A DNA stretch of 64,000 nucleotides from Eledone cirrhosa (taxonomy: Eukaryota). This document shows positions 2,302-60,452 of the stretch, piece by piece. Both the position numbers and the translations under genes were made by a program. Within the stretch, counting starts at the first letter, position 1. The number at the start of each line of letters is the position of its first letter. The stretch spans positions 264,182,001 to 264,246,000 of the forward strand of contig OZ024742.1 in NCBI GenBank assembly GCA_964016885.1. Reading direction: 5' to 3'. The notes under the pieces are model-generated. The model had not been told where the DNA came from. It saw nothing but the letters and a program-made list of their open reading frames with translations, and did not search any database.

Positions 2302-2597
2302 TATTATTATTATTATTATTGTTATTTTGCTATTATTATTAATACTACTAATTATTATTGATGTTGTATAGTGTGTGGTTGTAATATATGGTTATTGTTA
2401 TTTATATACATATATATATTTTTTATGTTTGTTTGGGATCAATATCGTATCACACGACATGGTCACTTGACAAAACAAAACATATGCAATACTGTCCTTG
2501 TTTATCTAAATGACTGCTGCCGTTCTCCCATCTAATGTTATGATATATATATACGATATTAATAAATGGAAACTATATTTATAAAACCATATTTATT

Positions 2598-2655
2598 TCA
2601 TTATACATATTTCAGGGATACCAAATTAAATTATGGTATGCCTTCATCAGACAAT
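2598..2655 (-). ncRNA. Candidate minimal hammerhead ribozyme (Penelope-like element terminus)
   Basis: Minus strand attgt CTGATGA aggcatacca-taatttaatt-tggtatccct GAAA tatgtata atg. Intact core and 10-bp stem II (1 mismatch), weak stem I, AATAAA just downstream. Confidence 0.6.
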
Positions 2656-2879
2656 ATACAATATATAACAGTTTTACAAATAAGCTTTGACGTACCCTTT
2701 TAAAATGCGACCATTATTTTTGGAAGCCATCTGGATAGTGAATTGTTTATATTATTTTAATAAGTCTTAGTGTTAAGGACAATTAGAAAAAGACGGAGAG
2801 AAAGAAAAAAGACGGAGAGAGAGAAAAAAGAAAAAAAAAAAACTTTGAGAAATATCGGAGAGAGAGAAATGCATGGAGG

Positions 2880-15119: not shown

Positions 15120-15268
15120 ATATTTTGAGTATATGTTGGTTGTATACCAACACCTCAGTATGCAGGCTGGAGCACTCGACGAAGTGCGCAGGTTGGTTTG
15201 GTTACTCCGGAGTAATGTAAAATAAAGTAAAATAAAAGTCAAATGTTTAAAATTTAGCTTCGTTTATT

Positions 15269-15323
15269 ACTGCTATATATATTTCAGTGACAGCCATCTT
15301 TGGCTGTGACCTCTTCAGTCAGT
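15269..15323 (-). ncRNA. Hammerhead ribozyme candidate, left palindrome arm
   Basis: Mirror copy of 15561-15615. Confidence 0.7.
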
Positions 15324-15560
15324 CCGAATTAGTGTGGTATAGACAAGTACATATGTTGTTGAGGTGTATAATTTTGTCAATACTCTGATATGCCCAGTTC
15401 CTGGTTGGGTTGTTATTTCACTGAGGAACTGGAATCATGATTCATATGATTCCAGTTCCTCAGTGAAATAACAACCCAACCAGGAACTGGGCATATCAGA
15501 GTATTGACAAAATTATACACCTCAACAACATATGTACTTGTCTATACCACACTAATTCGG

Positions 15561-15615
15561 ACTGACTGAAGAGGTCACAGCCAAAGATGGCTGTCACCGA
15601 AATATATATAGCAGT
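15561..15615 (+). ncRNA. Hammerhead ribozyme candidate, right palindrome arm
   Basis: actga CTGAAGA ggtcacagcca aaga tggctgtcacc GAAA T ATAT ATA gcagt AATAAA: intact core, 11-bp stem II (1 mismatch), palindromic loop III, A.G mismatch at the base of stem I. Confidence 0.75.
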
Positions 15616-15659
15616 AATAAACGAAGCTAAATTTTAAACATTTGACTTTTATTTTACTT

Positions 15660-15708
<49 letters not shown>

Positions 15709-17314: not shown

Positions 17315-19095
17315 TTATTTAGAATTGGAGACTTCAATGCACATGTTGGCACTGACCAATTGGCATGGAAAAGAGTGATTGGAAGGAATGGTGATTTCGA
17401 TCTAAATACGAATGGAGAAGCCTTATTAGACTTCTATTCTAGTAATGAGCTCTCTAATATGAACATGTTCTTCTAAAAATACACATGGTATAAGCGAAAT
17501 CGGGTACAGAGATCAGCAATTGATTTTGTTATTCTCTCTGATCTCTTTGATTCTGTGTTGCATATTCGTGGGCTGTCAACTGATCACCATCTAGTTATCT
17601 GTAGACTGAGGTTAATTAAAGCCAAGAAAACCCACAAAACTTACAGGCCCTGGGAAGCGCTAGTGGATAAGGAAGTCAGGACCAGGTATGCAGATACTAT
17701 AGCATCCAAATTCAGAGAACTCCCTGAGCATGGCCGTTGAAACTGAGTGGTGACTGTTCGACTCAGCAGTTTCTGTTTCATCTGTTAAAAGCTGCGGGGA
17801 GAAAGCGGCTTGATGTGACAAGAAGATTCCTTGATTCAGTTACGAAGTTAAAGATGCCATCCCCGTTAAAATCTAATCCAAATATCAGGCAAAAAGATGT
17901 AGTTATATTGCCGAGTCCAATCTAGCTGGACGAACAATGGCGCTTTTGTCCTGGATACAGCACAACCGACCAAATATTCACACAGGCAGGTCTTCGAGAA
18001 AGCGTGAGAATATTGCCAGGAGTGGTATTCTTGTTTCGTAGACCTCGAAAAGGCATACAATCGCGTTCCATAGGACCTGTTGTGGAAGGAAGCTTCTACA
18101 AGAGTTTGGGATCGATAGACAACTTCATATTGCTCTGAAGTCTCTATAAGAATGCCCTAATATTTGTGTTTGGATAAATTGTATTAAATCGAAACCATTG
18201 AATGTGGGTGTCGGACTCCTCCAAGGGTGCGTACAGATAACTCTCCTGTTCATAATCTTCATGATACGCGTAGTTTGGTTGAACGTGTGGACATGGTAAA
18301 ATAATAAAATGACTGGAATTGGCAGACGGCATAGAATTACTTAACTCGTCGGAAAGTTATCTCCTACATGCACGTGATAGATTTACTGGCGGGTGTTGCA
18401 CGGCTAGAATGAAAATTAGTGCTGTGAAGACATACACTCGTGCTCCAAATGAAGCCTGCACACTGCACATTACTTGTGAGTGGAGTTCCACTCTAGCAGG
18501 TGGAAATTTCAAGTATCTCGGGGACGTTTTCACGAGTAATGTAAGACAGGAGGCTGAATTAAGTGCAAGAATTGCAGGAGGTGGTGCAGTAATGTGCCAA
18601 CTTCAACATTCGATAATGAGAAAGATGTAGGTAGGTGTAAAAGCCAAACTCGCTATCTTCAATCCAGTATTCGCGTTAACCATTACCTTTGGACATAAAT
18701 CTTGGTAAATCATCCACACATACGATCGCCAATACAGGCGCCAGAAATAGGGTTCCCCGAAGGATCTTTGGAGTAACGTTACTCGATAGACTGCGTAGCT
18801 CGGAGAACAGAGAGTCAGTCCAGGTAGAACCGCTACTTCTCTGAATTGAGATATCACAGCTTCGATACTATGGGCATGTGGTTAAAATGTCTCAGGAAAA
18901 AATTGCCGGCCAAATCATCCGGCAGGAGATCCAGGAGTAGACCCCGAACAAGATGGTTGGATAACATCCATGAGCTTGGCTGGTCTCGCTTGGGGATCAG
19001 TTGGAGACACTTGCTTCTGATAGGACCCGCTAGAAGGCGTGCTTGAGGATTATGCCCCCACGACCCTTCCAGGAATAAGTGAGCAAAGAAGATAT
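17315..19095 (+). mobile_element. Degraded RTE-clade LINE (APE + RT + 3' end)
   Basis: IGDFNAHVG, STDHHLV, FVDLEKAYNRVP, FKYLG, GRRSRSRPRTRWLDNI; many stops and frameshifts. Confidence 0.9.
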
Positions 19096-19561
19096 ATAGA
19101 TGAGAGAGAGGGGCAGGGTCTAATATGTGTTTGTGTTTATGTGTGTAAGTGTGACAGACTAAAAGAGAAGGTCTGTTATATTAAGGCCTAGCAGTTTAGT
19201 GATAAGCGGATAAAACATCGGATAGAATGATATACATTCTTCGTTTCGACTCTCTTCACTCTGAGTTCAAATGCTGACGTGACTATCGACTATTAATGGA
19301 CTCGCTTTTCATGAACACCTTCTTCCAGCACAGGGACATCCATAAATATACATGGTGAAAATAGGCAATGACGCAAAAAAGATTGGGAACCCCTGAAATA
19401 CAGCAATGTTGGAAGCTAAATTCTAATTCTATTCTATTTTAATTTGAGCCAACTTATACAGCTTCATATGCAAATGAGATTAATCACCACATTTACACAG
19501 ACGAAAAAAACTATATATTTTCGCCTGTTTTCAAAGTCCAGCAGTTGCAAGAACGGGGGAG

Positions 19562-19605
19562 ACCATCCTGACGAGAACCTGTCGAGTTCGAAATGCATCG
19601 ATGGT
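19562..19605 (+). ncRNA. Canonical minimal type-I hammerhead ribozyme
   Basis: accatc CTGACGA gaac ctgtcga gttc GAAA T GC A TC gatggt: perfect 6-bp stem I, 4-bp stem II, palindromic UGCA stem/loop III, AUC site (cleavage predicted after 19599). The host repeat (about 19510-19773) is homologous to 41595-41840. Confidence 0.85.
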
Positions 19606-19770
19606 TGTCCCCTCTTGCTTCTGCCGAACATCGCTCAGTGGCGTTGGCTGCCAGCGTTATTCATAGCTATGGCTTTCTAAATCTTTATTTATAAACATAC
19701 CGTATTTCTTTCAAAATACGAAATTCAAATACATATTTGTATACAGCTATGTTCGAAGCTAAATTCTAAT

Positions 19771-19867
<97 letters not shown>

Positions 19868-20029
19868 GTTAACAGCCGAAGTGTATGATAAAATTATATC
19901 TGTATAAATACAGAGTGGGTAACTGAGACTGCACCAATGTGTATATATACACATATTTAATATGCATACCAGAAATTACGTATTTGCCGGTAAACTGAAA
20001 AATTGATAAACACTTTTAATCGATTTTCA

Positions 20030-35031: not shown

Positions 35032-35086
35032 ATCATCATCATCGTTTAACGTCCATCTTCCACGCTTGCATGGGTTTGTATGTATG

Positions 35087-35117
<31 letters not shown>

Positions 35118-35150
35118 GTATGTATATGTATGTATGTATGTATGTATGTA

Positions 35151-35184
<34 letters not shown>

Positions 35185-35268
35185 TGTATGTAATTGTATG
35201 TATGTATGTGTATGTATGTATATATATGTATATATATATATATATGTATGTATGTATGTATATGTATG

Positions 35269-35319
<51 letters not shown>

Positions 35320-35330
35320 ATGTATGTATG

Positions 35331-35367
<37 letters not shown>

Positions 35368-35582
35368 GTATATATATGTATATATATATATGTGTATGTA
35401 TATATATATGTATGTATGTATATATATATGTATGTATGCATGTATATATATATGTATGTATGTATATATATGTATGTATGTATATGTATGTATGTATATA
35501 TATGTATGTATGTATATATATATATGTATGTATATATATATATGTATGTATATATATAGGTATGCATATATATATATGTATG

Positions 35583-35615
<33 letters not shown>

Positions 35616-35630
35616 ATATATATATATATA

Positions 35631-35834
35631 GGAACGAGTAAGACCCCGACAGCTGAGCTCAAGCCGTTTCGACGGCTAATTCTGGACTCAGAATTCTCGT
35701 CCAGAATTAGCCGTCGAAACGGCTTGAGCTCAGCTGTCGGGGTCTTACTCGTTCCTATTACCCACTCTACTACCTCAAGTATTGAGTACTTTGGTGCGTT
35801 ATGGTCCACCTGGTTCCTTACCACATTTCCTTCG

Positions 35835-35836
<2 letters not shown>
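35631..35836 (+). mobile_element. Half-hammerhead element, copy 3, with perfect 57-bp fold-back
   Basis: 35631-35687 is the exact reverse complement of 35699-35755, with an 11-nt spacer. Confidence 0.8.
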
Positions 35837-35876
<40 letters not shown>

Positions 35877-35943
35877 ATATATATGTATGTATGTATATAT
35901 ATATGTATGTATGTATATATATATGTATGTATGTATATATATG

Positions 35944-35975
<32 letters not shown>

Positions 35976-36200
35976 TATATATGTATGTATATATATATAT
36001 GTATGTATATATATGTTTTCTCTTTCTCTTAATTTTGAGTATATTTTTTTGACCGGCCACCTTCCTGATGGCAAGGTTGTAAAAGAAAAGAAATTGTCAT
36101 CCCTTGAATCGCAAGAATGTTTTGCAAATTTTGAAGGTGCCAGCTATCATATATATGTATGTATATATATATATATATGTATATATATATGTATGTATAT

Positions 36201-36238
<38 letters not shown>

Positions 36239-36327
36239 GTATATATACGTATGTATATATATATATATATGTATATATATATTTGTATGTATATATATAT
36301 ATGTATATATATATATATGTGTATGTG

Positions 36328-36372
<45 letters not shown>

Positions 36373-36411
36373 ATATATATATATGTATATATATATATGT
36401 ATGTATGTATA

Positions 36412-36447
<36 letters not shown>

Positions 36448-36473
36448 TGTATGTATGTATGTATGTATGTATG

Positions 36474-36509
<36 letters not shown>

Positions 36510-37052
36510 TGTATATATATGTATATATATATATATGTACGTATGTATATATATATATATATATACATATATGCATGTATGTATGTATATATGTATGTAT
36601 GTATATATATATGTATGTATGTATGTATATATATATATATGTATGTATATATATATATATATGTATGTATTTATATATATATATATGTATGTATGTATGT
36701 ATATATATATGTATATATATATATGTATGTATATATATATATGTATATATATATGTATGTATGTATGTATATATATATGTGTATATATATGTATGTATAT
36801 ATATATATGTATATATATATGTATGTATGTATGTATATATATATGTGTATACATATATGTATATATATATATGTATATATATATATATGTATATGTATAT
36901 ATATATGTATATATATATGTATGTATCTATATATATATGTATATATATATATATATGTATGTATGTATATATATATGTATGTATATATATATATATGTAT
37001 GTATGTATATATATATATGTATAATATATATGTATATATATATATATGTATA

Positions 37053-37086
<34 letters not shown>

Positions 37087-37107
37087 GTATATATATATAT
37101 ATGTATA

Positions 37108-37139
<32 letters not shown>

Positions 37140-37181
37140 GTATATATATATATATGTATAATATATATATATATATATATG

Positions 37182-37231
<50 letters not shown>

Positions 37232-37540
37232 AATATATATAGATATATATATATGTATATATATATGTATGTATAATAAATATAATAAATAAATAACAAA
37301 GAACGCTTATAGCATATGCATATCTTTACTTGCTAACATTGTTTCATCCACATATACGGCTCCCACTGGTTGAGCTTAAACTTTGATACACGCGGATTTG
37401 CATCCTTGTATATTATCATGGATAAGTGGAGTGTTATACACCCCTGATCCTTTCCCTAGCATACTATATGTATGCATGTATGTATGTATATATATATGTA
37501 TGTATGTATGTATATATATATGTATATATATATATGTATG

Positions 37541-37609
<69 letters not shown>

Positions 37610-37610
37610 G

Positions 37611-37672
<62 letters not shown>

Positions 37673-37674
37673 TG

Positions 37675-37719
<45 letters not shown>

Positions 37720-37968
37720 ATATATATGTATATATATATGTATGTATGTATGTATGTATATATATATATGTATATATATATATATGTATGTATGTATGTA
37801 TATATATATATGTATGTATGTACGTATATATATATATATGTATATGTATGTATATATGTATATATATATATGTATATATATGTATGTATGTATATATATA
37901 TATGTGTATATATATGTATATATATATATATGTATATATATGTATGTATGTATATATATGTATTTATG

Positions 37969-38001
<33 letters not shown>

Positions 38002-38235
38002 GTATGTATATATGTATATATATATATATATGTATATATATATGTGTTTGTATGTATATATGTATATATATATATATATGTATATATGTGTACGTATGTA
38101 TATATGTATATATATATATATATGTATATATATGTATGTATGTATATATATGTATTTATGTATGTATATATATATATGTATATATATATATGTATGTATG
38201 TATGTATATATATATATGTATATATATATATATCC

Positions 38236-38748
38236 GGGAGAGATGACCCCTTAGCCTTTGTCAAGGCAGAATTCTAGGAGAAGGAAAACTCTGATATAAC
38301 ACCTGCAACCCTGATGGTATCCAATGATGTTGACTTGTTCTTCTTTTTGGTAAATATCATCTTGGTTAAGAGAGTGGGACTGGCTTTGTGCAATGCCTTT
38401 GCTCACTATAAAAGCTTCATGGCACAGGCATTGCTTTATATCTGGAGATCTCTCTGCACTTGTCATCACATGGTACCATGGGCCCAGCACTGTGTGTCAA
38501 TAATTGTCACAGGTGTAGTGTTTGTACCAGAGCTTTCAAGTCGCTGGCTGGACTAAAAAGTCACACTCGTTCAGCGCATCGGTAGGGGTTCTCCTACATG
38601 GATATAAAGTAGTGGCCGTACTCGAAAACGAGTTGGCAGCCACCATATGTATATATATATATGTATGTAATATATATATATATGTACGTATGTATATATA
38701 TATATGTATATATATATATGTATATATATATATGTATATATATATATG

Positions 38749-38839
<91 letters not shown>

Positions 38840-38874
38840 GTGTACGTATGTATATATGTATATATATATATATG

Positions 38875-38923
<49 letters not shown>

Positions 38924-39305
38924 GTATGTATGTATATATATGTATATATATATATATGTATCTATGTATGTATATATATATGTATATATATATATGTATG
39001 TATATATGTATATATATGTATGTATGTATGTATGTATATATATATATGTATATATATATATTTATGTATGTATATATATATATGTATATATATTTATGTA
39101 TGTATATATATATATGTATATATATATATGTATGTAATATATATATATGTATGTATGTATATATATATATGTATATATATATATGTATATATATATATAT
39201 GTATATATATATGTATATATATATATGTATATATATATGTATTTATATATATATATGTGTATATATATATATATGTATATATATGTATATATATATATAT
39301 GTATG

Positions 39306-39391
<86 letters not shown>

Positions 39392-39445
39392 TGTATATGT
39401 ATGTATATATATATATATATGTATATATATATGTATGTATATATG

Positions 39446-39502
<57 letters not shown>

Positions 39503-39507
39503 GTATG

Positions 39508-39540
<33 letters not shown>

Positions 39541-39545
39541 GTATG

Positions 39546-39578
<33 letters not shown>

Positions 39579-39595
39579 GTATATATATATGTATG

Positions 39596-39626
<31 letters not shown>

Positions 39627-39643
39627 GTATTTATATATGTATG

Positions 39644-39674
<31 letters not shown>

Positions 39675-39709
39675 GTATATATATATGTATGTATATATAT
39701 ATATGTATG

Positions 39710-39742
<33 letters not shown>

Positions 39743-39746
39743 GTAT

Positions 39747-39780
<34 letters not shown>

Positions 39781-40710
39781 GTACATACATGTATATATAT
39801 ATGTATGTATGTATATATATGTATGTATGTATGAGAGATGACCCCTTAGCCTTTGTCAAGGCAGAATTTTAGGAGAAGGAAACCTCTGATATAACACCTG
39901 CAACTCTGATGGTATCCAATGATGTTGACTTGTTCTTCTTTTTGGTAAATATCATCTTGGTTAAGAGAGTGGGACTGGCTTTGTGCAGTGCCTTTGCTCA
40001 CTATAAAAGCTTCACGGCACAGGCATTGCTTTATATCTGGAGATCTCTCAGCACTTGTCGTCACATGGTACCATGGGCCCAGCACTATGTGTCAATAATT
40101 GACACAAGTGTAGTGTTTGATCCAGAGTTTTCAAGTCGCTGGCTGGACTAAAAAGTCACACTCGTTCTGCGCATCGGTAGGGGTTCTCCTACATGGATAT
40201 AAAGTAGTGGCCGTACTCGAAAACGAGTTGGCAGCCACCATGTATGTATGTATGTATGTATGTATGTATCTTGGCGACTAAACTGGCAACCCCACCAAGG
40301 TTTCTTGGTGAGGAGGGTGACTTTGGACATCCTGCAGGACTAAAAACAAAACCTGTCAAAGGGCAAAGGAGCTCTTAAGAGTAAATGGCCATCCAAAATC
40401 ACATGGAGAGATGACCCCTTAGCCTTTGTCAAGGCAGAATTCTAGGAGAAAGAAAACTCTGATATAACACCTGCAACCCTGATGGTATCCAATGATGTTG
40501 ACTTGTTCTTCTTTTTGGTAAATATCATCTTGGTTAAGAGAGTGGGACTGGCTTTGTGCAGTACTTTTGCTCACTATAAAAGCTTCATGGCACAGGCATT
40601 GCTTTATATCTGGAGATCTCTCTGCACTTGTCGTCACATGGTTCCATGGGCCGAGCACTATGTGTCAATAATAAGTAGTGGCCATACTCGAAAACGAGTT
40701 GGCAGCCACT
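38236..40710 (+). mobile_element. Three tandem copies of a non-autonomous RTE-derived unit (38236-38646, 39834-40241, 40270-40710)
   Basis: RTE-type leader ctaggagaaggaaaactctgat, C-terminal C2H2 finger [22 protein letters not shown], 3' hairpin gtggcc-ctcg aaaa cgag-gccac, (TATG)n tails; no RT. Confidence 0.7.
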
Positions 40711-41440: not shown

Positions 41441-41465
41441 GTATATATATATATATATGTATGCT

Positions 41466-41840
41466 TCAGGCATAACTATACAGATATGTATAGAAATTTT
41501 GTATCTCTAAAGAAACACTATGTTTACATACCGTTTAAAAAACATCGGGGCTAACGTCCTCTGGTGGTGTCCAGCCTCATTTACACTGACGAGAAAGCTA
41601 TATATTCTCGGCTGTTTTCAGCAGTCGCAAGTGTGGGGTGGGGGGTATCGTCCTGATAAGAACCAGTTAAGTTTGAAATGCATTGACTGCTGGACACCAC
41701 CAGAGGGCGATAGCCCAGTGAGTTTTGCATAACTTAGGCTTTCTAAATGTTTACCTGTAAACATACCGTGTTTCTTTAGAAATGCGAAATTTCTATACAT
41801 ATCAGTATACAGCTATGCCTGAGACTAAATCCTAATTCTA
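41466..41840 (+). mobile_element. Hammerhead-bearing element with inverted copy of its 3' part
   Basis: 41466-41575 is an inverted copy of 41689-41822; degenerate HHR gtc CTGATAA gaac cagttaa gttt GAAA TGCA TT gac at 41650-41687; same family as 19510-19773. Confidence 0.75.
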
Positions 41841-51191: not shown

Positions 51192-52055
51192 TCATCATCA
51201 TCATCATCATTTTATGTCTGCTTTTCCCTGCTTGCAAGGGTGGGACGGGTCTTATTCAGCACAGCATCTCTCCACTCGTCACGGTCCCCGGTCATCTCCA
51301 CCATGAGCTTCAATGATCTGAGGTCTGTTCTCACCACCTCCGCCCATGTTTTTTGTGGTCTACCTCTACCACGTCTTCCTTCAACTGGCAATTCCTGGCA
51401 CTTCTTCACCCAACGGTCATCCTCCATGCGCATCACATGTCCAAACCACCTCAGTCTCCTCTCCCGTACACTACATTCTGTCCCTCTCAGACACAGTTTC
51501 TCTCTCAACACATTTATGCTGGGTCGTTCACGCACATTTACACTGTACATCCAACGGAGCATGCTTGCCTCATTTCTCTCCAGCCGTCGCATATCCTCTG
51601 CAGTTGCTGCCCATGTCTCACTACCATGCAGCATCGCGCTCCTCACACAGGCATCATGCAACCGGCCTTTCATACGCAGGGAGAAACCCTTCTTCGTCAA
51701 CAGAGGAAGCAGCTCCCTAAACTTCTTCCAACCTGTCCTTATTCTAGATACTATGGCCTCGGAACACCCTCCTCCCATGCTAATCTGATCTCCTAGGTAC
51801 CGGAAGCTATCCACCACTTCTATAGCGCCCTCCTGCATTTGAAAAATGTGTCTATCAATGCGACTTCTACTGTCTAATTTCCCTGTACATCTACTGCATA
51901 TATATTTCTCCCTACCTGTTAGTTTGCCTGCTATCCCGCTACATCTCTTGTGTACCCAGGATCTGCATTGTGTGCATTTTATAGAATTTATGCCAGTTCC
52001 TTTTCTGCATATCGAACATGGCCATTTCCCTGACGGAATCAGGGTTTTGTCCTCT
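51192..52055 (-). mobile_element. 5'-truncated RTE-like LINE with PHD-like finger inside the RT region
   Basis: ORF 51212-51838 (FRYLGD, LRWFGHVMRM, GRGRPQKTW) preceded by WPCSICRKG..CTQCRSWVHKRCSG..CSRC; (GAT)n tail. Confidence 0.9.
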
Positions 52056-56345: not shown

Positions 56346-58488
56346 ACTCTTTGAGTCACAGTCATTGATGTTAGTTAACTGGAAAGTTTGTTGAAATGAA
56401 TATCAAGCCACTACCTGCAGCCTCAGATATTCAGGACGTATCGGAGGGTTCTTGCTGTTCCCAGCAAGCATGCCTTTTGAAGCGTTCCAAAAAGCGTGAA
56501 GAAGCCAATTTTCTTTAACCATCCCTGGAATCTTTTTGAGATAGTCCCTAGTGCGCCTATGACAATCGGGACCACTTTGACTTCATGGCAGTTTCAAATC
56601 CTTTTTACCTCCCACTTTAAGTCCTGGTATCGGTTAATTTTCTCCCTCTCCTTCTCTTGCACTTTCGTGTCGAATGGGCAGGCCACATCCACAATCAGGC
56701 ACGATCTTTTTTCTTTGTCCACAACCACCAGGTCAGGTCTATTGTGTTCAAGTTTCTTGTCCGTCTGTATCCTAAAATCCCATAGCACCTTCACCTGATC
56801 GTTTTCTATCACCGCCTCTGGCTTATGCTCATACCACTTCTCAGAATGTGGTAAATTGTTTACTTTGCATAGGTGCCAGTGGATCACCCTGCCCATGACA
56901 TCATGTCTCCAGCCCTTATAGTGAGTCTGGGCTAGGTGTTTACACTCGGATACAATGTGAGCCACAGTCTCCTCTCTCTCTCCACAGATCCTGCAAAGTG
57001 GGCTAGCCTCCTCCTTGTAAATATGGTGTTTCAACCATTTCGTTTTGAGGGCCTGCTCCTGCGCAGCCATTAACATTCCTTCTGTAGCCTTTTTAAGGTC
57101 TCCTCTTTTCAACCAGTTCCATGTCTTTGGATCTCTAAATTCAGTTTTCTCAAAGAAGGTACTATGAATGGATTTTTTCTGAAGGCTGCTCTTTCTCCTT
57201 GATGTTATTTCCTCCTTGGACATCCCCTGGCCTATTGTCCCCTCCTTTAGTACAGTTCTGAGCATTGGCTCCTTACTATCAGTCACGTATTTGTGTAGGT
57301 TGTTTTTCTCCATCTGAACACAGTCCTCTATGCTGATAAGACCTCTTCCACCTTCAGATCTCCTTAAGTAGAGTCTATCGATATCACTCCTCTTGTGGAA
57401 CATGTAGATAGTCAATAGCTTCCTAGTCTTCCTATCCATTTCTTTTTGTTCAGCAACATTCCATCTCAGAATTCCAGCTCTGTACCTAATAATAGACACA
57501 GCTCGGGAATTTACTACTTATGGCATTCCATTCCTACTGTTCAGATGTGACTTTAATACGCTCCTTACTCTCCGAATGTATTCAGTTCTTATCAATTCCT
57601 TCATTTTTTTGTTCTTGATGTCATCAGCCTCCAGAACGCCCAAATACTTGTATCCTTCCCCAGAGTCAATTTCCTTTATCATCTCAGCTGTTGGTACCTG
57701 GATTCCGTTACTTCTGCTCAACTTACCCCTCTTCATCACAATGACTCCACACTTACTAATACCAAATTGCATACAGATATTATTGCTGAAAATACGGACA
57801 GTGTCAACAAGCACATCCAACTCCTTCTCACTCTTCCCGAAGAGCTTAAGATCGTCCATGAAGATGAGGTGATTGATGGTAAGCCCTCCCTTTCCCAACC
57901 TGTATCCTGCTCTCACTTTTCGCAGTACACTGGTCAGGGGCATCAGGGCAAGGACAAACAACAGAGGGGACAGACTATCACCCTGGAAGATACCTCTCTT
58001 GATCTTCACGCTTCCCAAGGATTCTCCAGTTGATGTTAACTCTGTTTCCCAGGACTTCATACTTTTGCCCAACAACTGTCTGATGTTATCTGCCACCTTG
58101 AAGATCTCCAGGCTTTTGGTGATCCAAGAATGAGGCACCATGTCAAATGCCTTTTTGTAGTCTATCCATCCCATGGCAAGACCAGTGTGTCTCCTCTTGC
58201 AATTCCTCATTACCATCTTATCAATAAGTAACTGGTCCTTTGTACCACGTGACTTCTTTCGGCATCCTTTCTGTTCGTCAGGTAACAAGTTGTTTGTGTG
58301 GAGGTGATAGTAGATTTCCTCAGACATCGGAAATCTACCATCACCTCCACACAAACAACTTGTTACCTGACGAACAGAAAGGATGCCGAAAGAAGTCACA
58401 TGGTACAAAGGACCAGTTACTTATTGATAAGATGGTATTGAGGAATTGCAATAGGAGACACACTGGTCTTGCCATGGGATGGATAGAC

Positions 58489-58490
<2 letters not shown>
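56345..58490 (-). mobile_element. Young R4/Dong-like element 3' half (RT, CCHC finger, RLE) with 5' fold-back
   Basis: ORFs 57518-58408 ([22 protein letters not shown]) and 56594-57499 (CRIC..HIVSEC, RPD..D..K); few disablements. Confidence 0.95.
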
Positions 58491-58542
<52 letters not shown>

Positions 58543-58599
58543 CATAGTTGCATTTATCTTGCTTTATGTTCATATGAGTTATCACCAAGTGACAACCAG

Positions 58600-60120
58600 T
58601 GACCTCAACAGAAAACAAGGTTTGCCATGTTCAAGAAAGAACATACATACACACATGCATCTTTAGGTGTTTAGACTTGTGATGTACTTATATTGACAGA
58701 ATCTTAGTATATGGGCAGTTCCCATTAGTACTATCTTTTGTATTTCTTCTATACGCGGATTTCCTGGGATTTGCGATAAGTAATCATTAGACCCCTTAGG
58801 TATCATTCCTAGAGCGCCTACAACCACTGGTATTGTTTTAGTTCTCAATTTCCACATTTTTCCAATTTCTGTCTCCAGGTCCTTATACTTGCTCAATTTT
58901 TCAAATGTTTTTATACATACATTCTTGTCTATTGGAACGGACATATCAATTAGCAGGCATACCCTTTTTTTAAAGTCCTTCAGTATTATATCAGGTCTAT
59001 TTGCATCTATTTTTCGGTCTGTTTGGATGGTAAAGTTCCACAAGATTGAGATGTGATCTTTTTCAAGTACGTGAGGTGGTTGATGCTCCCACCAATTCTT
59101 TTGATGGGGCAGGTTAACATGCTTACACATTATCCAATGTATGTATTGTGCTGCTCTGTCGTACCTGTTTAGGTATTCGGTTGGAGCTATAGGACTGCAC
59201 ATTGAAATTATATTATCAATGGTCTCTGGTTGTTTTGTACATACACGGCATAATGGGTTGCATCCATTTTTTATTATGTTGGCTTGGTAATTTTTTGCTG
59301 GCAGACTCTGATCTTGTGCTGATATAATCAGTCCTTCAGTCTCCGATTTCAGTCCAGAGGATGCCAACCACTGATGGGTTAAAGTTTTGTCAACATCAGG
59401 ATTGTTAGCTCGCTCCGGGTATTTTCCATACAGAGGATTTTCTTGCCATTTCTTAGCCAGTTTCTATAGCAGTTCTTTCTTTGCAGTTACTTTTACCTGC
59501 TTTGCTTTTTCTGTGTTTTTCATTTCAGCAGTAAATGGAACTTCTGAAATTTGTAGTTCATTACTGCATCTTTTGATGATTTCGAGTTTCAAAACGAGTT
59601 TGATCATCCAATCATGTGATTCCCTTAGATATGTAGATAATCCAATTGTTGCAGTTTTCAACGCAATGTCTAACTGGATTAACCCACATCCTCCTTCTTT
59701 CCTAGGGAAATATATTCTAGCTGTATCTGCCTTAGGGGGATGCATTCTGTGCATGGTGAATAATTTTCTAATTTTTGTATCGAGCTTACGGATCTCTGTG
59801 CTTGACGAGTTGATGGCATTGTAACTGTAGGTTACTACTGGTATGGCAAGCGTGTTTATGGCATCGATCCTGTTCGTTGCATTCAATTCCGTTCTTAAGG
59901 TTGTTCTTACTCTGCGATAACATTCCTTCCTTAGCCTTTCCCTCATTCTCGAGTGCTTGATTCCGTCTCCTTCACAAACACCTAGATATTTGTAAGTTTC
60001 CTCTTGATCAAGTTCTCTTATCACATTCCCCCGATCAAGATTAATGTCTGAACTTTTCAGCAGCTTTCCTCTAGTGAGCGTGGCTCTGGCGCATTTATCT
60101 AGTCCAAACTCCATTTTTCC
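58600..60120 (-). mobile_element. Second R4/Dong-like family, 3' fragment
   Basis: MEFGLDKCA, YKYLGV, CRVC, ANRPDII..IDMSVP..KYKDL. Confidence 0.9.
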
Positions 60121-60124
60121 ATTA

Positions 60125-60452
60125 TTTACATTTGCTGAAAGGTGGGTGAATGTGGCGAGAATGGCCCGTGTGAGTGGGCCTACTCTGCTCATGCGCCTGT
60201 AGGTGGGTAAATTTGAGGAGGAGAGGGGTGCCCTTCCAGGGTGCTCTCGAAGTGTCGGGTCGTTCAGGATTGGTGGGGTACCTGAGCGAACCCTGGGTGG
60301 TCATCCTCCCTATTGGGAATTTTTTCTTGTATTTTTCTTGTTACTTTGTTATTGTTATTCATATTGTTTACTCGATTTTTCTGTAAAATCCCACTGTCCC
60401 AGTCTTTTGTATTGTCCCCTATATGTCGGCCCTTGTGGCCAATAAATGAAAT
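60125..60452 (+). mobile_element. L1/Tx1-like 3' UTR fragment
   Basis: gaaaggtgggtgaatgtggcgagaatggcccgtgtg matches 56000-56045; ends ggccaataaa. Confidence 0.75.

What the first reader, a model, noticed from the sequence alone, without database searches (positions are those of the whole stretch)
19562..19605. Textbook 44-nt minimal hammerhead, the best candidate for an active ribozyme
Seen: every conserved core base is present, stem I (accatc/gatggt) and stem II (gaac/gttc) are perfect, and stem-loop III is the self-complementary UGCA. The paralog at 41650-41687 keeps the pairing with different sequence (gtc/gac; gaac/gttt) but has a core G8-to-A change. A second copy of the element's 3' tail lies just upstream (19398-19432 vs 19741-19773), hinting at a tandem arrangement. 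Inference: it cleaves after C19599, probably as a dimer.
Basis: partly seen in the sequence, partly recalled or inferred. Interest (0 to 1): 0.75.

Follow-up and report, generated by a model that had tools for sequence, protein, structure and literature searches.

The report
Hammerhead retrozyme copy with Penelope footprint
The motif is an intact hammerhead fold inside one of thousands of scattered copies of a 343-base, protein-free repeat of a known kind (an animal retrozyme); it is predicted to cut only when paired with a second hammerhead, which this single copy lacks, and the ends of the copies suggest that a Penelope-type retrotransposon enzyme likely pasted them in.

Summary
Observation confirmed: full core, stems I and II and C17 = 19599 are as stated; 0 such hits in 200 window shuffles. 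It is not a 'minimal' hammerhead but the canonical type I form (1-bp helix III with palindromic UGCA loop; U1.7 and last loop-2 A kept), like the axolotl/newt motif that needs a dimer. It lies in a 343-bp non-coding unit; 2,254 intact-core matches genome-wide (control 1), three subfamilies with compensatory changes in stems I and II. Copies show Penelope-like insertion marks: microsatellite targets, 5' truncation, head-to-head arms, two fixed 3' ends about 40 nt apart (40 of 50 two-armed inserts pair one of each). Copies run through the cut site, so the template was uncut there (circle or multimer). This copy is 1.1 units, one ribozyme, about 6% decayed: probably inert. The paralog's 3-bp stem comes from a deletion. 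New lead: the best-conserved stretch is not the ribozyme but a 73-nt block with an octamer (promoter or enzyme docking site). No helper element found; cleavage and expression untested. The scan noted other retrozyme families with the same signature on other DNA of this genome.

The parts
19398..19430 (+). 5'-truncated end (tail) of the preceding unit; marks where copying stopped after passing once round the unit
   Evidence: 31/33 identity to 19741-19773; 5' start mapped to 19398; same head-to-tail junction in many other copies
19431..19773 (+). One complete 343-bp retrozyme unit, non-coding, 37.6% GC
   Evidence: 3041 first-look candidates, 40 scored, others 84-91% identical; longest stop-free frame of the tandem majority 73-83 aa; circular fold z = -3.5 on 60 shuffles
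19432..19505 (+). Most conserved block of the unit (72 of 73 positions identical between three subfamily majorities); candidate internal promoter or helper-enzyme docking site (inferred)
   Evidence: overall identity 73%; highest summed contig depth of the unit in DNA-like runs; window coordinates approximate by 1-2 nt
19468..19475 (+). Octamer ATGCAAAT, 131 nt before the cut (its identity as an snRNA-promoter octamer is recalled)
   Evidence: also kept in a distant family with the same layout (L137, E 6e-5, L175)
19497..19528 (+). Hairpin upstream of the ribozyme
   Evidence: folds; an A-U to G-C change between window copy and paralog, read by eye
19540..19626 (+). Extended helix I enclosing the hammerhead
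   Evidence: MFE and centroid; helices 1-2
19561..19606 (+). Canonical type I hammerhead: full core, 4-bp stem II, 1-bp helix III with palindromic UGCA loop; predicted cut after C19599; U1.7 = 19606, last loop-2 A = 19585
19733..19773 (+). Optional ~40-nt tail between the two fixed 3' end classes (about +133 and +175 from the cut); inferred reverse-transcription start sites
19771..19869 (.). (TC)n(TA)n(TG)n microsatellite at the 3' junction, the likely target
   Evidence: microsatellites follow many 3' ends
41575..41839 (+). Paralog of subfamily B, 5'-truncated; core G8 to A at 41658 and a deletion after 41687: decayed
41463..41575 (-). Inverted arm of the paralog (head-to-head insertion)
   Evidence: (fold z = -14.6)

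Best explanation
This is one 1.1-unit, single-ribozyme copy of a 343-bp non-coding repeat family with an intact type I hammerhead, predicted to cut only as a dimer and likely inserted by a Penelope-like retrotransposon enzyme acting in trans. Shown: the fold, its conservation by compensatory changes across three subfamilies, thousands of dispersed copies, head-to-tail partial tandems, microsatellite junctions, two fixed 3' ends, head-to-head arms, and copies that run through the cut site. Inferred: a source locus with two or more units is transcribed; two hammerheads pair their AUGCAU palindromes into a shared helix III and cut after position 17; the unit-length RNA is ligated to a circle; a PLE protein nicks AT/AC/TC repeats and starts reverse transcription inside the RNA at about +133 or +175, one site per strand, and copies round the template until it falls off. 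The window copy has no second ribozyme in cis and is probably inert.
For: Core and stems. 2,254 intact-core matches vs 1 for the reversed pattern; 486 vs 0 for the G10.1 subset. Covariation: 23 cells changed on both sides vs 9.6 +/- 2.5 (77 rows); 56 vs 22.4 +/- 6.9 (36 distinct rows), three of four stem II pairs and one stem I pair switch between subfamilies. Helix III has probability 0.00 as a monomer; the hexamer self-duplex is -4.7 kcal/mol. 3' ends: 21 of 40 at +125 to +145, 11 of 40 at +168 to +186, 0 of 40 within 15 nt of the cut; 12 of 40 longer than one unit; 18 of 40 with an inverted 5' arm. 5' ends at the cut: 1 of 30 and 0 of 30 in sets picked by post-cut sequence. Of about 184 distinct insertions 76 are head-to-head, 9 carry two same-strand ribozymes; 40 of 50 classifiable two-armed inserts pair a long with a short end (expected 50%, p about 1e-5). 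These match PLE marks: partial tandems, inverted 5'-truncated copy, 30-40 bp tail on one end only (10.1101/2021.04.23.441226, passages) and two internal RT start sites (PMC11167929). RT plus GIY-YIG elements are abundant in this genome.
Against: No cleavage or expression data. No helper identified: none of 89 PLE-ORF loci from three families carries this unit as its own terminal repeat (3 had hits: two adjacent insertions and one distant relative). Circle not shown: tandem pieces within one insertion share non-majority variants only about twice as often as control (13 of 1367 sites, 0.95% vs 0.44%) and differ at 8.0% vs 10.1%; no array of three or more units seen (longest 999 bp, loci limited to +/-1.5 kb). 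Covariation counts reflect about four subfamily-level events, and 12 of 51 anchored rows with register shifts were dropped, which raises the paired fraction. In an anole PLE the hammerhead was dispensable for insertion in vitro (PMC11167929), and only 1 of 9 predicted Xenopus dimers cleaved (10.64898/2026.07.22.740005).
Confidence: 0.68

Rival explanations
1. Same element and same PLE helper, but the template is the uncleaved linear tandem transcript; the hammerhead cuts rarely or only with protein help and no circle is made.
For: [quoted passage not shown]
Against: No long tandem source array was seen among about 184 insertions; unit-length circles were shown for coral, mussel and axolotl elements of this architecture (PMC7229834 parts 2-4); the core stayed intact in all three subfamily majorities.
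Confidence: 0.22
2. The copies are solo pseudo-LTR fragments of an autonomous Penelope-like element, not a self-standing retrozyme.
For: All insertion marks are those of PLEs; PLE ORFs lie near some copies; retrozymes are proposed to derive from pLTRs (10.64898/2026.07.22.740005).
Against: Units join directly head to tail at 328-343 bp spacing with no ORF between; the ORF next to L012 is a separate 5'-truncated insertion whose relatives continue upstream in coding sequence; neighbouring PLEs have their own, different hammerhead-like motifs.
Confidence: 0.06
3. This particular copy is an active monomeric ribozyme kept for a host function.
For: Perfect core; two double changes in stem I relative to the majority keep pairing; U1.7 and last loop-2 A present; octamer intact.
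Against: One double change is two CpG transitions and the other is the pair of subfamily C; a loop-2 A kept in 75 of 77 rows is T here; helix III does not form; divergence 5.9% equals the median of its peers; the window holds repeats and LINE-like fragments and no evident host gene (read by eye).
Confidence: 0.04

Closest known systems
Metazoan non-LTR retrozymes (Cervera and de la Pena 2020, PMC7229834; parts 2-4 of 6 and passages read), above all axolotl HHR_Amex1 / newt satellite 2 and the 350-390 bp mussel repeats
   Same: Type I hammerhead with one-pair helix III and palindromic tetraloop; unit 150-450 bp, low GC, no ORF, thousands of copies, co-occurs with PLEs
   Different: Mostly dispersed 0.5-1.5-unit copies rather than arrays; circRNA, expression and cleavage untested; sequence not matched to any published family (supplement unreadable)
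Penelope-like elements: pLTR hammerheads and insertion structure (PMC4209133 parts 1-2 of 4; 10.1101/2021.04.23.441226 passages; PMC11167929 parts 1-2 of 4)
   Same: 5' truncation, partial tandems, inverted 5' arm, 30-40 nt optional tail, AT-rich or microsatellite targets
   Different: No RT or GIY-YIG ORF; ribozyme is canonical (4-bp stem II, loop 3 present), not the min-HHR
Vertebrate non-LTR retrozymes as non-autonomous PLE derivatives (Li, Clavereau, Pollet, bioRxiv 10.64898/2026.07.22.740005; parts 1-3 of 5 read)
   Same: Monomer-rich families; proposed PLE mobilisation
   Different: That work argues from co-occurrence and pLTR homology; here the support is the insertion anatomy, and no homologous pLTR was found. 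By its definition (two consecutive complete ribozymes) this copy is not an active retrozyme

Membership tests
Type I hammerhead ribozyme | Core C3 U4 G5 A6 N7 G8 A9, G12 A13 A14, A15.1-U16.1, H17 | tested here: met
Type I hammerhead ribozyme | Stems I and II supported by compensatory changes | tested here: met
   (about four independent events; rows dropped as stated)
Type I hammerhead ribozyme | Tertiary-contact nucleotides U1.7 and last A of loop 2 (PMC11875169 passages) | tested here: met
   77/77 and 73/77; 38/40 and 38/40; sequence only
Type I hammerhead ribozyme | Self-cleavage after H17 | not testable with these tools
   needs in vitro assay or RNA ends
Type I hammerhead ribozyme | Match to an Rfam hammerhead model | tested here: not met
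   no Rfam hammerhead model scored this short-helix-III form
min-HHR of PLEs (PMC4209133) | No helix III/loop 3, long helix II, short helix I | tested here: not met
   4-bp stem II, 6-7 bp stem I, UGCA loop
Non-LTR retrozyme | 150-450 bp non-coding unit, GC under 50%, one type I ribozyme per unit | tested here: met
Non-LTR retrozyme | Head-to-tail copies with two ribozymes | tested here: met
   family level: 9 of about 184 insertions; not met by the window copy
Non-LTR retrozyme | Expressed as unit-length linear and circular RNA | not testable with these tools
   no RNA holder listed
PLE-mobilised element | Partial tandems, inverted 5' arm, 30-40 bp tail on one end, microsatellite targets | tested here: met
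PLE-mobilised element | Sequence shared with an autonomous PLE terminal repeat | tested here: inconclusive
   0 of 89 loci of three PLE families; the genome holds many more families
Autonomous PLE | RT and GIY-YIG ORF | tested here: not met
   longest stop-free frame 73-83 aa

The most novel reading that the evidence does not exclude
This retrozyme carries its own sequence-specific control module, more conserved than its ribozyme: a 73-nt block with an octamer that is an internal snRNA-type promoter (as reported for newt satellite 2) and/or the docking site of the Penelope protein just 3' of the two priming sites. With it the element would be a complete minimal replicon (promoter, dimeric cutter, circle, two-site priming, one site per DNA strand), testable with a 343-nt RNA.
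Probability: 0.33. Interest if true: 0.6.

Novelty: new member of a known kind. Interest (0 to 1): 0.33.

Why it matters
The ribozyme itself is ordinary. The family is useful because how animal retrozymes are copied into DNA and what transcribes them is still only proposed; here the copy ends name the likely machinery (PLE), give the two priming sites to the nucleotide, and point to one short conserved block as promoter or docking site, so each step can be tested with a small RNA.

Tried and rejected
Rfam at two thresholds: no hammerhead hit. RNA evidence: no RNA holder listed; three runs of unrecorded kind, one sample, laid as contigs, cannot show ends or expression. Helper search: the RT-EN frame downstream of L012 is a separate insertion; the EN frame upstream of L020 belongs to a very young PLE with another motif; PLEs beside L031 and L165 have their own ends; three copies 2-3 kb apart on C26 are a local duplication without a PLE ORF between them. 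Pfam gave no family at cut-off for six PLE-like frames, so RT and GIY-YIG labels rest on motifs read by eye and recalled. A two-strand fold did not model the double hammerhead and was not used. The 5'-start values printed were offset by one unit and were recomputed. A pol III box A was not found in the unit. The primary paper on the newt promoter was not held; only a citing passage was seen (PMC2220036). Literature searches for this family or this reading: searches found none naming it; 'octopus' and 'cephalopod' were my guess at the animal group, not a result. Supplements that may bear on novelty: PMC7229834 (unreadable), PMC4209133 file 1 (not searched), the 2026 preprint (closed).

Full report
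Observation. The hammerhead is at the stated place: stem I 19562-19567/19600-19605, core 19568-19574, stem II 19575-19578/19586-19589, GAAA 19590-19593, UGCA, U19598, C17 = 19599. A strict descriptor finds it once in the window and never in 200 dinucleotide shuffles. Helix I extends to 19540-19626. Rfam does not detect it. By the definitions in PMC4209133 (parts 1-2 read) it is the canonical metazoan type I form and not the min-HHR. U1.7 is kept in 77 of 77 and the last loop-2 A in 73 of 77 aligned copies, the two bases of the known tertiary contact (PMC11875169 passages). Helix III is one pair with a palindromic tetraloop, has probability 0.00 as a monomer, and matches the description of axolotl HHR_Amex1, which cleaves poorly alone and well as a dimer (PMC7229834).

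The element. The motif sits in a 343-bp unit (19431-19773) preceded by 33 nt of the previous unit and followed by (TC)n(TA)n(TG)n. The 3.0-Gb genome gave 3041 first-look candidates, 40 scored; an intact-core pattern has 2,254 matches against 1 for the reversed control (a few belong to other families). About half of sampled copies keep the core (14 of 30; 17 of 27; 26 of 51), so the family has several thousand ribozyme-bearing copies (estimate). Three subfamilies were seen: A (this copy), B (the paralog) and C; median divergence from their own majority 7.1, 6.9 and 4.6%. Three of four stem II pairs and one stem I pair switch between subfamilies with pairing kept (56 double-changed cells vs 22.4 +/- 6.9; 39 of 51 anchored rows plus the window were given, 12 rows with register shifts dropped, 7 further loci had no anchored ribozyme; 23 vs 9.6 +/- 2.5 on 77 rows). 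These counts stand for about four events. Within copies the core decays like the rest (0.940 vs 0.937): selection acted on the source lineage, not on inserted copies. The unit has no ORF.

How copies were made. In 40 copies picked by the core alone, 3' ends fall at +125 to +145 (21) or +168 to +186 (11) from the cut, none within 15 nt of it; 12 exceed one unit and 18 have an inverted 5' arm. In two sets of 30 picked by post-cut sequence, 1 and 0 begin at the cut. Among about 184 distinct insertions (de-duplicated by sequence, a few local duplicates may remain) 106 are single-strand, 76 head-to-head, 9 hold two same-strand ribozymes and none three; 40 of 50 two-armed inserts with both ends classifiable pair a long with a short end, against 50% expected (p about 1e-5; 26 had an unclassifiable end). 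Partial tandems, an inverted truncated copy and a 30-40 bp tail on one end are the published PLE marks, and the tail equals the distance between two internal RT start sites in a purified PLE. Since copies cross the cut site, the template was uncut there: a ligated circle or an uncleaved multimer. My test between them was weak (shared variants 0.95% vs 0.44% control).

Helper. The genome has abundant RT plus C-terminal GIY-YIG elements (labels from recalled motifs; Pfam silent), one with 147 of 147 scored places identical over 258 aa. None of 89 loci of three PLE families uses this unit as its terminal repeat. The helper is unidentified.

This copy and the paralog. The window copy is single-strand, ends at the long site, starts 202 nt before the cut, has one ribozyme and differs from the majority at 20 of 341 sites. 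Its two double changes in stem I are a pair of CpG transitions and the pair typical of subfamily C; a conserved loop-2 A is T. It could cut only in trans. The paralog is a decayed subfamily B copy with G8 to A, a deletion after GAC and an inverted arm.

A lead beyond the finding. Between the three subfamily majorities overall identity is 73% and about 80% over the ribozyme, but 72 of 73 positions from -166 to -94 are identical (most C copies were picked on this block, but 3 of 3 C, 11 of 14 B and 24 of 36 A copies picked otherwise have the exact octamer). A distant family with the same layout keeps the octamer as its longest exact match. Two readings: an internal snRNA-type promoter, as cited for newt satellite 2 (PMC2220036 passage; the octamer's role is recalled), or the protein docking site, since on a circle or tandem the block begins right after the long priming site and the anole PLE needs RNA about 55-60 nt 3' of its start sites. 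A search for retrozyme, promoter and octamer together found 0 papers.

Verdict. Real hammerhead, new family of a known kind (animal non-LTR retrozyme, likely PLE-mobilised); this copy is probably inert. Interest 0.33.

Noticed in passing
G000:C3:66545000-66554999 (L114) and 146 other places: Very young autonomous PLE: 1278-aa frame with RT and C-terminal GIY-YIG, tandem spacing 4286 bp, 147 of 147 scored places identical over 258 aa; each repeat has a CUGAAGA...GAAA motif of another type.
   Followed up: partly
window 2560-2700 (-), core at 2650: Hammerhead-like motif of another family (extra A after A9, long stem II); the same type flanks an RT-EN frame in L176 at 2382 and 5506.
   Followed up: partly
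window 15200-15680: Head-to-head pair of a third repeat with CUGAAGA...GAAA motifs at 15318 (-) and 15566 (+), between (TA)n tracts; its stem I is unconvincing.
   Followed up: no
L137:60-353 (-) and L175:6100-6450 (-): Distant relative of this unit: octamer, hairpin, type I hammerhead with palindromic CUAG loop 3.
   Followed up: partly
subfamily C, e.g. L298-L327: Most abundant and youngest subfamily has A-U in place of the usually conserved G10.1-C11.1 pair and A at position 17.
   Followed up: partly
3' junctions of loci: End choice seems to follow microhomology: ends near +133 often run into (CA)n, ends near +143 and +175 into (TA)n, near +173 into (CT)n; read by eye, not counted.
   Followed up: no
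window 18500-19040, 51200-52050, 56600-60300: Fragments of RTE-like and other LINE-like frames; about 5 kb of TA/TG satellite at 35077-39832 (labels recalled).
   Followed up: no
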